Source: Escherichia coli
Lineage (GTDB): Bacteria; Pseudomonadota; Gammaproteobacteria; Enterobacterales; Enterobacteriaceae
Length of the DNA stretch: 64,000 nt
Strand: one strand, 5' to 3'
NCBI RefSeq assembly: GCF_024223415.1
Contig: NZ_CP100500.1
Part shown: positions 50,781 through 54,749 of the stretch, in pieces
How the letters are laid out: each line of letters opens with the position of its first letter
How positions within the stretch are numbered: position 1 is the first letter of the stretch
Notes under the pieces: generated by a model
The model's database searches: none
The model's input: only the letters and a program-made list of their open reading frames with translations
Told to the model about the DNA's origin: nothing
Translations under genes and position numbers: made by a program

Positions 50781-50868
50781 AACAATTCCTTAAATATAAA
50801 TATGGCAAGCTACATGTTTTGTTATATGAAGAAAAATCCCCTCTCCGGTAAGAGAAGGGATTGAGGAT

Positions 50869-52152
50869 TTACAGACTTCTGGAAGGTTGCGCAGCTCTTA
50901 CAACACGCGGTTGATCTTCCGCAGCGTCTTCCAGCGCACTTAAATCACGGTCTTTCACTTCTGGCATTTTCAGCGCAGAGATTAAACCAATCACTGAATA
51001 TGCCATGATCATAATGGCGATCGGATACCAGGATTCCGTCATGGTGCAGAAAATACCCGCCAGGATAGGACCAAAACCGGAAGCGATAAGACCACCAATT
51101 TCTTTAGAAATAGCCATCCGGGTAAAACGGTTTTTACAACCGAACATTTCTGCCATGGTAATGTTTTCCAGAGCAAATAATCCCAGCACCGCACAGTTAT
51201 GAATCACAATCAGTGCAACCATAATGGTGCTCGGGGCATAGCTTTTATCTACGATGATAGAAAGCATTGGCCATGCCAGCACAATCGCAGAGGTATTCAT
51301 AATAATATACGGGATCCGGCGACCAATTTTATCGGATAACCAACCAAGGAACGGAATGGTCATAAAGCCGAGAATCGAACTGATCATCAATGCATCTGTT
51401 GGAATTGCTTTGTTAAACAATAACGTCTGTACTAAATAGCCTGCAAGGAAAGTCTGAATTAACCCGGAGTTACCTGCCTGACCAAAACGCAGTCCTGTTG
51501 CCAGCCAGAAGGATTTGCTCTGGAACATGCTACCAGCAGGTGCAGGTTTTGCTGTCGGTTGGTTGCTGTCGTTAACCTTCTCAAAGACCGGGCTTTCTTT
51601 CAGATTCATACGCAACCAGATAGCAAAGACCATCACGACAACGCTCGCCAGGAACGGTATACGCCATCCCCACGCCAGCAGTTCCTCTTTACTGAGAATG
51701 AAGAACATAAAGGCCCAGATTGCCGTTGCGCTCAAGGTTCCGCAGTTAGTTCCCATAGCTACAAATGAGGAGATAATTCCGCGCTTACCTTTTGGCGCAT
51801 ATTCCGCCAGCATCGTACCGGCACCGGAAATTTCCGCACCTGCACCCAACCCCTGAATAATACGCAGCGTCACCAGCAAGATGGGTGCAAAAACACCAAT
51901 CTGTGCATAGGTCGGTAACACACCAATTAAGGTGGTACAGATCCCCATCATGGTGATGGTAATAAAGAGCACTTTTTTACGCCCTATTCTGTCGCCCATT
52001 TTGCCGAAAATAAATGCTCCGACAATACGCGCCACATAACCTGCACCGTAGGTTCCCATTGCCAGAATTAACGCCATTGCCGTTGATGATTCAGGAAAAA
52101 ATATTTCATGAAACACTAACGCTGCGCCGAGCGAATATAACTGGAAATCCAT
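50869..52152 (-). CDS. ydfJ: MFS transporter (ProP-like), N-terminally truncated at the prophage junction (427 aa)
   Basis: 427-aa ORF begins directly in a TM helix and lacks the roughly 30-residue N-terminus seen in ProP-family proteins; prophage DNA starts immediately upstream. Confidence 0.85.
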   Translation of the reverse strand: MDFQLYSLGAALVFHEIFFPESSTAMALILAMGTYGAGYVARIVGAFIFGKMGDRIGRKKVLFITITMMGICTTLIGVLPTYAQIGVFAPILLVTLRIIQGLGAGAEISGAGTMLAEYAPKGKRGIISSFVAMGTNCGTLSATAIWAFMFFILSKEELLAWGWRIPFLASVVVMVFAIWLRMNLKESPVFEKVNDSNQPTAKPAPAGSMFQSKSFWLATGLRFGQAGNSGLIQTFLAGYLVQTLLFNKAIPTDALMISSILGFMTIPFLGWLSDKIGRRIPYIIMNTSAIVLAWPMLSIIVDKSYAPSTIMVALIVIHNCAVLGLFALENITMAEMFGCKNRFTRMAISKEIGGLIASGFGPILAGIFCTMTESWYPIAIMIMAYSVIGLISALKMPEVKDRDLSALEDAAEDQPRVVRAAQPSRSL

Positions 52153-52753
52153 AATTCACAGGTGTTTTTTCCCATCCTGTGGTTTCCTTGGCGTTTTCTA
52201 GGTTTTTTCAGATAGTTGCATTTTTTTAAAAGCATCCTAAGTTCGATCTCAGTGTCTATCTGGGGCCTATTTCTGTCCCATATATGCCCCAAAAAACTCC
52301 CCAACAGATAAGTAGTTTTTTCATGGATTTACGCGTAAAATCAATAACGGCTGGAAATCATTCAATACTCGCACTATCGAAAAATTTACCAGCCAACCGC
52401 AGCACGTTCTTGCATAAGGTGTGTCTGCGGTTTTTCAACTATTCAGATACATCACTCCCATCACATTCATTCCTCCACATCAAAGGCATATAGGCTATAT
52501 CACCTTGATATTTTTCTTCTTCAGATAAAAACTGTTATCTATGTATACTTTTAAACCCAATCCGTGTAGAGTCTCTGCATAAGATAGTTTGCAGTTGCCA
52601 CTTCAGATTGCGCCATAAACCGCCTGATTTTTGCCGCCACCTGTTAGCATTCCTGTATACCTGAAACGACAATGTTTATCTACGAACTTTAAGAACACCC
52701 AAGATAAAATTGTCAACTATATCATATATAACACATTACTAATTCGAGGCTAT

Positions 52754-52867
52754 ATGAACAGCATACTGATAATCACTTCTCTCCTTATCATATTCAGCAT
52801 TTTTAGTCATGCCCTAATAAAATTAGGGATTGGCATATCCAATAACCCAGACAAAACCGATGTATAA
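52754..52867 (+). CDS. hypothetical 37-aa hydrophobic peptide (candidate small membrane protein)
   Basis: ATG 52754 preceded by [41 protein letters not shown]; no homology claim. Confidence 0.25.
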
Positions 52868-52935
52868 GTCAACATATCCTGAATCAGACATACAATATCG
52901 CAATGAAAATCAATAATATTTTAAGGAATATCTTC

Positions 52936-53169
52936 ATGAAATCAAAAGACACCCTAAAGTGGTTCCCTGCGCAGCTTCCTGAAGTAAGAATTATCCTAGG
53001 GGATGCTGTAGTGGAAGTAGCAAAACAGGGAAGACCTATCAATACCAGAACATTGCTTGATTACATTGAAGGAAACATAAAGAAAAAATCATGGCTGGAT
53101 AACAAAGAATTATTACAAACAGCGATATCAGTTCTTAAAGACAACCAAAATTTAAATGGTAAAATGTAA
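52936..53169 (+). CDS. ydfK: prophage cold-shock-associated protein YdfK (77 aa)
   Basis: Start at ATG 52936 (MKSKDTLKWFPAQLPEV…); matches recalled YdfK/YnaE family. Confidence 0.85.
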   Translation: MKSKDTLKWFPAQLPEVRIILGDAVVEVAKQGRPINTRTLLDYIEGNIKKKSWLDNKELLQTAISVLKDNQNLNGKM

Positions 53170-53485
53170 TATAATAAACTTACTTTTTTATCATTTTTCC
53201 ACTTTAACAACATTTTGCTCCACTTTTCCACGACCAAACAACTTGAAATCTGGTTAAAATAACACGCAACACTATTCTTCTTCCTTGAGTCCGCCCGGAA
53301 CTCGAAAAACAAACCGAGTTAAAGCCATTTTTCACAAAATCGATTTTGGGTCTCACCAAAGTTACGGGGTTGCATACGCATTCGTTTATTTTCGAACGTG
53401 TACATACAAATATGCACAAAAATAATCAAAATTATTTTCTGAGATGCATTATGATATGAACACCAATTTCGTATAGAGTCTCACT

Positions 53486-54076
53486 ATGTCTCGAATTTTT
53501 GCTTACTGTCGGATATCAACGCTGGATCAGACCACCGAAAATCAACGCCGGGAAATCGAAAGTGCAGGTTTTAAAATCAAACCTCAGCAAATAATCGAAG
53601 AACACATTAGCGGCTCAGCAGCAACCAGTGAGCGTCCTGGTTTTAACCGGTTGCTTGCTCGCCTGAAATGTGGTGATCAATTGATTGTGACAAAACTGGA
53701 TCGCCTTGGTTGTAATGCAATGGATATCAGGAAAACAGTGGAACAACTGACCGAAACAGGTATCAGAGTGCATTGCTTAGCATTGGGGGGCATTGACCTG
53801 ACCAGTCCAACAGGAAAAATGATGATGCACGTAATTTCAGCAGTCGCTGAATTTGAACGAGACCTTTTACTTGAACGAACTCATTCCGGGATAGTAAGAG
53901 CCCGCGGCGCAGGGAAACGTTTTGGTCGACCACCTGTGTTAAATGAAGAACAGAAACAGGTGGTATTCGAACGAATTAAGTCAGGTGTAAGTATAAGTGC
54001 CATTGCCCGGGAATTCAAAACCTCGCGGCAAACCATTTTAAGAGCCAAAGCAAAACTTCAGACACCTGACATATAA
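53486..54076 (+). CDS. pinQ: serine-recombinase DNA invertase Pin (196 aa)
   Basis: [20 protein letters not shown]… resolvase/invertase catalytic domain plus C-terminal HTH. Confidence 0.95.
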
Positions 54077-54173
54077 AAAATAATCTCGGTGTGAGATGCT
54101 TTACGTCTTCCAAGCCCCCTTCCTTGCCGTAAATGGAAAGATACATCTAATTATAGAATTTATATGTTTTACC

Positions 54174-54749
54174 CTACGGCAGTGCTGGCCATTCAATATC
54201 CTGTGCAGTTGACGTATCAACACGGTTCAGCAACACCCGATACTTTTTCCAGGCTTCCAGCAATGAGGTTTCTTCCTCCGTTGCGATTTCCAGATCTACA
54301 GCATCCTGAAGTGGCGCAATATGCTCACTGGCTACCTGCATCAGGCTGTTTTTTGTTTCTTCCGCCTCCCGGATCCGGAACAGTTTTTCTGCTTCTGCAT
54401 CTTTCACCCAGGCTGTGCCGTTCCACTTCTGAAACTCCCCTTCCGGCGATAACCAGGTAACATTTTCCGGTAACGGACCGAGTTCAGAAATAAATAACGC
54501 GTCCCCTGACGCTACGTCATAAACCGTTTTACCCCGATGGTCTTCATCGAGATGCCACGATGCCTTATCACTGTTGAAAACAGCCACAAAGCCAGCAGGA
54601 ATATCTGGTGGTGCAATATCGGTACTGTTTGCTGGCAGACCTGTATGAGGCGGAATATATGCGTCACCTTCACCAATAAATTCATTAGTTCCGGCCAGCA
54701 GATTATAAATTTTTATGGTCCGTGGTTGTTCACTCATTCTGAATGCCAT
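54174..54749 (-). CDS. tfaQ: tail fibre assembly protein (191 aa)
   Basis: 191-aa Tfa-like ORF; start overlaps stf stop (TAATG). Confidence 0.9.

What the first reader, a model, noticed from the sequence alone, without database searches (positions are those of the whole stretch)
52116..52200. ydfJ is 5'-truncated exactly at the prophage boundary
The 427-aa ydfJ product begins MDFQLYSLGAALVFHEIFFPE…, which aligns to ProP-family transporters about 30 to 40 residues in. The sequence upstream (52153 onward) is unrelated AT-rich DNA. This marks the phage attachment point inside the 5' end of ydfJ and implies the transporter is either inactive or expressed from a phage-side promoter.
Basis: partly seen in the sequence, partly recalled or inferred. 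Interest (0 to 1): 0.3.

Follow-up and report, generated by a model that had tools for sequence, protein, structure and literature searches.

The report
Qin-type prophage junction truncating ydfJ
A lambda-like prophage sits at its usual attachment site inside the start of the E. coli transporter gene ydfJ, cutting off the first 28 codons; this junction is real, but it is already published and is common in E. coli genomes.

Summary
The 427-codon ydfJ ORF (window 50869-52152, minus strand) lacks the first 28 codons of the 455-aa gene found in prophage-free strains. Identity to the uninterrupted locus stops at 52154, two bases beyond the ATG. A four-way comparison (empty site, free-phage attP, both prophage ends in close relatives) shows a standard site-specific integration with an exact 11-bp core, TTATGGATTTC (window 52144-52154). 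The window side is attP arm plus ydfJ. The other end, in relatives, is rspB, then the 84-nt ydfJ 5' piece, the core and the integrase. That end lies about 44-46 kb away in relatives and is outside this window.

An in-frame TGA two codons upstream of the ATG means the phage supplies no replacement N-terminus. No Shine-Dalgarno sequence or nearby promoter-like site is present. The lost segment contains 16 residues that are invariant across genera, so the copy is probably inactive, but this is not proven.

Among 5,426 complete E. coli genomes, 2,007 have the intact site and 3,000 carry this same junction. Ramisetty and Sudhakari 2019 (PMC6379469) describe exactly this for Qin in K-12: promoter loss and 28 codons missing. 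NCBI's annotation of close relatives marks ydfJ as a pseudogene. The finding is already known and of low interest.

The parts
50869..52152 (-). ydfJ', the 5'-truncated MHS-family MFS transporter gene (427 codons plus stop). It corresponds to codons 29-455 of intact ydfJ.
   Evidence: ORF list; alignment to intact ydfJ of strain H105; TIGR00883 score 453.5 bits starting at model position 7; annotated 'missing N-terminus' pseudogene in NCTC10444, K-12 GM4792, ST866 and seven other sampled genomes.
52144..52154 (-). Exact 11-bp att core TTATGGATTTC, read on the minus strand. It is shared by attB, attP and both prophage ends. It contains the ATG (52150-52152) that now opens the truncated ORF.
   Evidence: Four-way att alignment; single occurrence in the window; the match to free phages ends exactly at 52144.
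52155..52158 (-). Imperfect extension of the core: TGAATT in the phage against TGAATTT in attB, a 1-nt indel. The in-frame TGA at 52156-52158 closes the reading frame two codons upstream of the ATG.
   Evidence: megablast matches to intact genomes end at 52158.
52155..52753 (.). AT-rich, apparently non-coding prophage arm derived from attP, 98% identical to free phages HannyBb, PhiR42_1, Tritos and mEp460_ev081.
   Evidence: match over window 52900..52144; in those phages the arm abuts the integrase gene; G+C 0.32-0.40.
52754..52867 (+). ynfT, a small YnaM/YnfT-family prophage gene.
   Evidence: Coordinates carried over from the NCTC10444 annotation, which is 100% identical across 50869-52700; the ORF is contained in 52631..52867.
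52936..53169 (+). ydfK, a prophage gene annotated as a cold shock protein.
   Evidence: Annotation in relatives; ORF; no Pfam match.
53486..54076 (+). pinQ-type serine DNA invertase.
   Evidence: Pfam Resolvase 3.6e-36 plus HTH_7; annotation in relatives.
54174..54749 (-). tfaQ, tail fibre assembly gene.
   Evidence: ORF; annotation in relatives.
54749..57253 (-). Side tail fibre gene, about 456 nt shorter than in relatives but in frame.
   Evidence: ORF; 2961 nt in NCTC10444 and ST866; two-piece matches; 132-nt tandem repeat.
57312..64000 (-). Further lambdoid late genes (lom-like, J, and tail assembly I/K/L homologues) that run off the window. The integrase end of the prophage is outside the window.
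   Evidence: ORFs; annotation of the collinear prophages in NCTC10444 and ST866; 97.7-98.3% identity over 52155-64000.
50835..50862 (-). Terminator-like hairpin (12-bp stem followed by a T run) immediately after the ydfJ stop codon and before ydfI.
   Evidence: the same hairpin is in the uninterrupted locus.

Best explanation
This is one end of a Qin-type lambdoid prophage. It integrated by tyrosine-integrase site-specific recombination at its normal bacterial attachment site, which lies inside codons 27-32 of ydfJ. Strand exchange within the shared core TTATGGATTTC joined the phage attP arm to codon 29 onward of ydfJ; that junction is in this window. The first 28 codons, the 57-bp rspB-ydfJ spacer and the rspA-rspB genes were left at the other prophage end, next to int and xis. 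That end is outside the window and about 44-46 kb away in close relatives. The phage arm supplies no substitute N-terminus, ribosome-binding site or recognisable promoter. The remaining 427-codon ORF is therefore most likely a silent or non-functional remnant that looks intact only because the insertion is evolutionarily recent and reversible. What is shown: the junction, the core, the hybrid structure, the 28-codon loss and the population frequency. What is inferred: loss of expression and function, and that the window's own prophage has the same far end as its relatives.
For: 1. Intact ydfJ is 455 aa and lies directly after rspB in prophage-free strains.
2. Identity between the window and the intact locus ends at 52154.
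3. The four att sites are as follows. attB: GCGCTTGAATTTATGGATTTCCAGTTATATTCG. attP of free phages HannyBb and mEp460_ev081: ACACCTGTGAATTATGGATTTCAAGAGTCATGCG. The window is the attP left arm plus the attB right arm. The integrase side in ST866 and NCTC10444 is the attB left arm plus the attP right arm.
4. In free phages the same arm abuts int-xis-exo. The prophage integrase is 99% identical to the HannyBb integrase and has an arm-binding domain plus the Phage_integrase catalytic domain.
5. The collinear 44-46 kb prophages in ST866 and NCTC10444 run rspB | 5' ydfJ piece | int ... tail genes ... pinQ-ydfK-ynfT | ydfJ'. The window's prophage part is 97.7-98.3% identical to them.
6. The same split point is used species-wide: 2,007 of 5,426 genomes have the intact junction, and nearly all others break at the same 12-19 nt. 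3,000 genomes carry this phage arm next to ydfJ'.
7. Against residual function: a TGA lies two codons upstream and there is no Shine-Dalgarno sequence. No promoter-like site lies on the minus strand closer than 52945, and the count is below the shuffle mean. Residues 8-28 include 16 positions invariant in 22 orthologues from several genera. All orthologues are 455-467 aa.
8. Published: Qin integrates at the 5' end of ydfJ with promoter loss and 28 codons missing (PMC6379469). ydfJ is listed as the Qin insertion site in E. coli W, K-12, B and Crooks (PMC3032704).
Against: The window's own far end and integrase cannot be seen. Its exact source genome is not among the 5,426 complete genomes (best match 98.3%), so the full structure is inferred from relatives. 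Inactivity is not demonstrated. All 10 sampled truncated alleles keep an open 427-codon frame with pN/pS 0.039, against 0.032 for intact alleles. No terminator-like site on the minus strand separates the phage late genes from ydfJ', so read-through transcription is possible. A preprint lists ydfJ among genes whose RNA level changes on DicC induction in K-12, so some transcript exists. Both structure predictions failed (pLDDT 40-41), so the amount of the first transmembrane helix that is lost is not established structurally.
Confidence: 0.93

Rival explanations
1. The truncated ydfJ is still expressed from phage-side transcription (read-through from the late tail operon or an unrecognised promoter). 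It would then work as a shortened transporter starting at Met29.
For: The ORF is intact in all 10 truncated alleles sampled, with low pN/pS of 0.039. No terminator-like site lies on the minus strand between tfaQ and ydfJ'. ydfJ RNA is reported as differentially expressed on DicC induction in K-12. The truncated product still scores above the TIGR00883 cut-off, 453.5 against 443.45 bits.
Against: Sequence conservation carries no information here, because truncated and intact alleles are interleaved. The K-12 truncated allele has 0 of 1284 differences from an intact allele, and the window allele has 6 of 1284 differences from another intact allele. The polymorphism therefore predates the insertions. 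There is no Shine-Dalgarno sequence, a TGA lies immediately upstream, and no nearby promoter-like site was found. Sixteen invariant residues are lost, including the conserved GWLGTALEF stretch just before Met29. No natural orthologue starts at this Met.
Confidence: 0.08
2. The prophage acts as a reversible switch. Precise excision by Int and Xis rejoins the retained 84-nt 5' piece to ydfJ' and restores an rspA-rspB-ydfJ unit, so cells alternate between transporter-off and transporter-on states.
For: Both halves and the core are retained. Relatives carry full-length int and xis genes. Identical or near-identical ydfJ alleles occur in both states, so the state changes on very short time scales. 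Intact and occupied sites are both common, 37% and at least 55% of genomes.
Against: Frequent gain and loss is expected for any active temperate phage and needs no regulatory role. Nothing in the sequence ties excision to a host signal. In K-12 the Qin integrase is reported to be mutated in most copies (PMC6379469). Excision without loss of the phage was not examined.
Confidence: 0.05
3. ydfJ naturally has a short form starting at this Met, and the upstream difference is ordinary strain variation or a choice of annotated start.
For: A 427-aa cluster with 3,723 member sequences exists in protein databases (P0003).
Against: That cluster is the E. coli truncated form. All orthologues outside E. 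coli are 455-467 aa. Residues upstream of Met29 are invariant across genera. The upstream DNA in the window is 98% identical to free phage genomes.
Confidence: 0.01

Closest known systems
Qin (Kim) cryptic prophage of E. coli K-12, integrated in ydfJ
   Same: The same attachment site, the same 28-codon truncation and the same junction sequence: K-12 matches window 50869-52700 at 98.7% over the full length (H4). The adjacent genes are also the same (ynfT, ydfK, pinQ, tfaQ). The case is described in PMC6379469 and PMC3032704.
   Different: K-12 Qin is a decayed remnant of about 20 kb with a truncated tail fibre gene and a mutated integrase (PMC6379469). The window element carries full-length late genes (J, lom-like, an 834-aa tail fibre). 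It resembles the 44-46 kb apparently complete prophages of ST866 and NCTC10444.
Free temperate phages HannyBb (PP925841), PhiR42_1 (PV340562), Tritos (OV696610) and mEp460_ev081 (LR597641)
   Same: They carry the attP from which the window junction derives, 98% identical over window 52900..52144 and ending exactly at the core. They have the same gene order tail fibre-tfa-invertase-ydfK-attP-int-xis-exo. The HannyBb integrase is 99% identical to that of the related prophages.
   Different: In the free phages attP is uninterrupted. Here it is split by integration, and only the tail-gene side is in the window.
Prophages that integrate into a gene but rebuild its end (e14 in icd, Rac in ttcA, tRNA-gene att sites)
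   Same: Site-specific integration inside a host gene, with a short duplicated core.
   Different: Those phages carry a substitute gene end, so the host gene stays functional; PMC6379469 describes this for icd and ttcA. Here the phage arm has an in-frame TGA two codons upstream of the junction ATG and encodes no N-terminus, so the gene is truly truncated.
MHS family of MFS transporters (ProP, ShiA, KgtP; TIGR00883)
   Same: YdfJ is a clear member: TIGR00883 gives 462.9 bits for the intact form and 453.5 bits for the truncated form.
   Different: The window copy lacks the N-terminal cytoplasmic segment and the start of the first conserved helix, which is model positions 1-6 of TIGR00883 and positions 22-39 of the ProP model.

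Membership tests
Site-specifically integrated lambdoid prophage (Qin type) at the ydfJ attB | The junction is a hybrid of an attP arm and an attB arm that share a common core | tested here: met
   Four-way alignment of attB, attP from two free phages, the window junction and the integrase-side junction from two relatives. The exact core is TTATGGATTTC at window 52144-52154.
Site-specifically integrated lambdoid prophage (Qin type) at the ydfJ attB | The second junction carries the displaced host fragment and the same core | tested here: inconclusive
   It is absent from the window, which ends about 12 kb into the prophage. It is present in ST866 and NCTC10444, whose prophages are 97.7-98.3% identical to the window part. 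The window's own genome is not in the collection.
Site-specifically integrated lambdoid prophage (Qin type) at the ydfJ attB | A tyrosine integrase and an excisionase lie next to one att site | tested here: inconclusive
   Not in the window. In relatives there is a 426-aa integrase with Arm-DNA-bind_2 and Phage_integrase domains, plus a DUF1233 excisionase.
Site-specifically integrated lambdoid prophage (Qin type) at the ydfJ attB | Lambdoid structural gene content next to the junction | tested here: met
   ORFs for tfa, tail fibre, lom-like, J and tail assembly genes at 54174-63447, collinear with annotated prophages and free phages.
Site-specifically integrated lambdoid prophage (Qin type) at the ydfJ attB | An empty site exists in other strains of the species | tested here: met
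   2,007 of 5,426 complete genomes have the uninterrupted rspB-ydfJ junction. Seven such loci (H105 and six others) were inspected, and all have a 455-aa ydfJ.
Functional MHS-family MFS transporter | Sequence match to the subfamily model above its curated cut-off | tested here: met
   TIGR00883 scores 453.5 bits against a cut-off of 443.45.
Functional MHS-family MFS transporter | Complete N-terminal domain, including the whole first helix as conserved in orthologues | tested here: not met
   28 residues are missing. Sixteen of residues 8-28 are invariant in 22 orthologues. The model match starts at position 7 of TIGR00883 and position 33 of Pfam MFS_1, against positions 1 and 2 for the intact protein.
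Functional MHS-family MFS transporter | Expression signals: a promoter or operon context and a ribosome-binding site | tested here: not met
   The gene is separated from rspA-rspB. There is no Shine-Dalgarno sequence and a TGA lies two codons upstream. No promoter-like site lies within about 760 nt on the correct strand. Consensus scans are weak evidence.
Gene-end-replacing prophage integration (icd/e14 or ttcA/Rac type) | The phage arm continues the host reading frame with a substitute end | tested here: not met
   The ORF cannot extend beyond 52152, because an in-frame TGA lies at 52156-52158.
Prophage as reversible regulatory switch (active lysogeny) | Regulated precise excision restores the interrupted gene without killing the host | not testable with these tools
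   Only the preconditions are visible: both gene halves and the core are retained, int and xis are intact in relatives, and identical alleles occur in both states.

The most novel reading that the evidence does not exclude
Qin-type phages with an intact int and xis could act as a reversible on/off switch for the rspA-rspB-ydfJ sugar-acid utilisation unit. Precise excision would rejoin the retained 84-nt 5' piece and the upstream operon to ydfJ'. The fact that identical ydfJ alleles occur in both the occupied and the empty state shows that the flip happens on very short evolutionary time scales.
Probability: 0.05. Interest if true: 0.4.

Novelty: already known. Interest (0 to 1): 0.08.

Why it matters
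It matters little beyond correct annotation. The 427-aa 'YdfJ' of K-12-like strains is a prophage-truncated remnant cut off from rspA-rspB, so it should not be treated as the native transporter in functional or metabolic-model work. Strains with the empty site (37% of complete genomes) carry the real 455-aa gene. The 11-bp core and four-way att comparison given here give a simple marker for scoring occupancy of this integration hotspot.

Tried and rejected
1. NCTC10444 as the window's source. It is 100% identical over 50869-52700, but its tail genes differ (about 93% identity and an offset; 97.7% overall). No complete genome in the collection is the source.
2. AlphaFold2 models of intact YdfJ, one from the single sequence and one from a 22-sequence alignment. 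Both were unusable (mean pLDDT 41.0 and 40.4), so no structural statement about the first transmembrane helix is made.
3. Kyte-Doolittle hydropathy did not resolve the first helix either; it is amphipathic and contains E27 and D30.
4. A sequence search of solved structures found only distant MFS relatives with E about 1e-5.
5. A pN/pS comparison of 10 truncated and 7 intact alleles gave 0.039 against 0.032. It was rejected as a test of function because the two classes are interleaved, down to identical alleles.
6. Literature searches for the rspAB/ydfJ L-gulonate pathway found nothing usable in the held library. The link between this gene cluster and L-gulonate catabolism (Wichelecki et al. 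2014, Biochemistry) rests on my own recollection and is not used as evidence.
7. A search for the displaced 5' fragment in the window found nothing.
8. A scan for inverted repeats around pinQ found only weak pairs.

Full report
**Observation.** The minus-strand ORF at window 50869..52152 encodes 427 aa beginning MDFQLYSLGAALVFHEIFFPE. A megablast of 50869-52700 against 5,426 complete E. coli genomes found ydfJ in 5,408 of them. There were two main patterns: matches across the whole query, and matches that stop at query base 1290, which is window 52158. I inspected seven loci of the second kind. All have an uninterrupted 1368-nt ydfJ (455 aa) lying directly after rspB, in the order rspA-rspB-ydfJ-ydfI on one strand. 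The intact protein starts MTIEKHERSTKDLVKAAVSGWLGTALEF and then continues MDFQLY.... The window copy therefore lacks exactly 28 codons. The window and the intact locus are identical up to 52154 and unrelated after that. G+C falls from 0.43-0.51 to 0.30-0.40 across the junction. The truncated product enters the ProP model at position 40, the ShiA model at 37 and the MHS subfamily model TIGR00883 at 7. The intact protein enters at 22, 12 and 1 respectively.

**What it is.** The DNA beyond the junction carries ynfT, ydfK, a pin-type serine invertase, tfa, a side tail fibre, a lom-like gene, J and tail assembly genes. This is the late end of a lambdoid prophage.
- The window's exact source genome is not in the collection. 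The best matches to 52155-64000 are ST866 (98.3%) and NCTC10444 (97.7%).
- In both relatives the prophage is 44-46 kb. It runs rspB, the 84-nt ydfJ 5' piece, integrase, excisionase, exo, dicB ... terminase, head and tail genes ... pinQ, ydfK, ynfT, then ydfJ' and ydfI.
- The 5' piece and the second copy of the core are not in the window. They would lie roughly 32-34 kb past its right edge.

**Attachment sites.** Four sequenced free phages (HannyBb, PhiR42_1, Tritos, mEp460_ev081) match window 52900..52144 at 98%. The match ends exactly at the end of the core, and in those phages the next gene is the integrase. The four sites align as follows:
- attB: GCGCTTGAATTTATGGATTTCCAGTTATATTCG
- attP: ACACCTGTGAATTATGGATTTCAAGAGTCATGCG
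- Window junction: the attP left arm plus the attB right arm.
- Integrase-side junction in ST866 and NCTC10444: the attB left arm plus the attP right arm.

The exact common core is TTATGGATTTC, at window 52144-52154. It is flanked by near-identity: TGAATT against TGAATTT on one side, and C/A followed by AG on the other. The exchange must have occurred between the T indel and the C/A mismatch. The integrase of the related prophages is a 426-aa tyrosine recombinase with an arm-binding domain and is 99% identical to the HannyBb integrase. This is ordinary lambda-style integration.

**Consequences for ydfJ.**
- The ATG of codon 29 lies inside the core, which is why a clean ORF starts 'exactly' at the boundary.
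- The phage arm reads ...CAC CTG TGA ATT ATG. An in-frame stop therefore sits two codons upstream and there is no Shine-Dalgarno sequence, so no substitute N-terminus is provided. This differs from e14 in icd or Rac in ttcA.
- On the correct strand, the nearest promoter-like match is at 52945-52918, about 770 nt away. The number of matches in the region is below the shuffle mean.
- In the intact locus there is no promoter-like or terminator-like site in the 57-bp rspB-ydfJ spacer. A strong terminator-like hairpin follows ydfJ (window 50862-50835). ydfJ is therefore probably the last gene of an rspA-rspB-ydfJ unit, and the insertion cuts it off from its transcription. This is an inference from consensus scans.
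- Orthologues in at least six other genera are all 455-467 aa. Sixteen of residues 8-28 are invariant in a 22-sequence alignment.
- NCBI's pipeline marks the gene 'incomplete; missing N-terminus' in every occupied genome inspected.

I conclude that the remnant is probably inactive. This is not proven. No terminator-like site separates the phage late operon from ydfJ', and one preprint lists ydfJ among the transcripts that change on DicC induction.

**Is conservation of the remnant informative?** I compared the shared 1284 nt of 10 truncated and 7 intact alleles. All are open. pN/pS is 0.039 for truncated alleles and 0.032 for intact ones. However, the two classes are interleaved. The K-12 truncated allele is identical to the intact allele of strain TUM2805, the ST866 allele differs by 4 nt from an intact allele, and the window allele differs by 6 nt from another. 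Occupancy therefore changes faster than the gene accumulates substitutions, and the low ratio says nothing about function in the truncated state.

**Frequency.** The uninterrupted junction is present in 2,007 of 5,426 genomes. In nearly all others the two halves of the query break at the same point and overlap by 12-19 nt. In 3,000 genomes, at least about 180 nt of this same phage arm adjoins ydfJ'. O157:H7 and other lineages share only the first 260 nt or so of the arm and then carry a DinI-like gene. Several lambdoid phage types therefore use this site.

[quoted passage not shown] They found Qin at this locus in 48% of 638 strains. The E. coli W genome paper lists ydfJ as the Qin insertion site in W, K-12, B and Crooks (PMC3032704). 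The SE11 genome paper lists a 46.8-kb lambda-like prophage 'between ydfJ and rspB' (PMC2608844). The finding is already known. The present work adds only the explicit four-way att comparison with free-phage attP, updated frequencies, and the observation that identical alleles occur in both states.

**Verdict.** The feature is an ordinary, published prophage junction. Interest is low.

Noticed in passing
window 54749-57253 (-): The side tail fibre gene is 2505 nt here but 2961 nt in NCTC10444 and ST866. All top matches to 52155-64000 need two pieces spanning about 12.3 kb for the 11.85-kb query. The difference is an in-frame shortening of about 456 nt in a repetitive region; a 132-nt tandem repeat lies at 56013-56311 with 2.3 copies.
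   Followed up: partly
window 54208-54406 (-): A full-length match to Rfam family IS009 (RF02111; 226.8 bits against a gathering score of 117) lies inside the tfaQ coding region.
   Followed up: no
window 50835-50862 (-): A strong terminator-like hairpin (12-bp stem plus T run) sits between the ydfJ stop codon and ydfI. It is also present in the uninterrupted locus. This suggests ydfI is not simply co-transcribed with ydfJ.
   Followed up: partly
alignment A5 (ydfJ alleles from L001, L004, L005, L008-L020 and the window): Truncated and intact ydfJ alleles are interleaved. K-12 (truncated) has 0 of 1284 differences from TUM2805 (intact). The window allele differs by 6 nt from intact strain 1504D004. 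Site occupancy flips on very short time scales.
   Followed up: yes
window 52155-52185 (-) compared with L001 5287-5316: The phage arm next to the core loosely resembles the displaced ydfJ segment: AGGATGG...CCTGTGAATT against GGGATGG...GCTTGAATTT. This could be extended att homology, integrase core-type binding sites, or chance.
   Followed up: no
window 50869-64000 compared with NZ_LR134092.1: The ydfJ flank and the first 550 nt of the prophage arm are 100% identical to NCTC10444, but the tail genes are only about 93-98% identical. The prophage is therefore mosaic relative to its nearest sequenced relatives, and the window's source genome is absent from the 5,426 complete RefSeq genomes.
   Followed up: partly
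L014 (O157:H7 DEC4E) 1585-2353, and hits H12-H17: Other E. coli lineages have different lambdoid prophages at the same ydfJ site. They share only about 260 nt of the attP arm and then carry a DinI-like gene instead of ynfT and ydfK.
   Followed up: no
window 53486-54749: A pin-type invertase lies next to tfa and the tail fibre, but no convincing inverted repeats of 20 nt or more flank a candidate invertible segment at the thresholds used.
   Followed up: no
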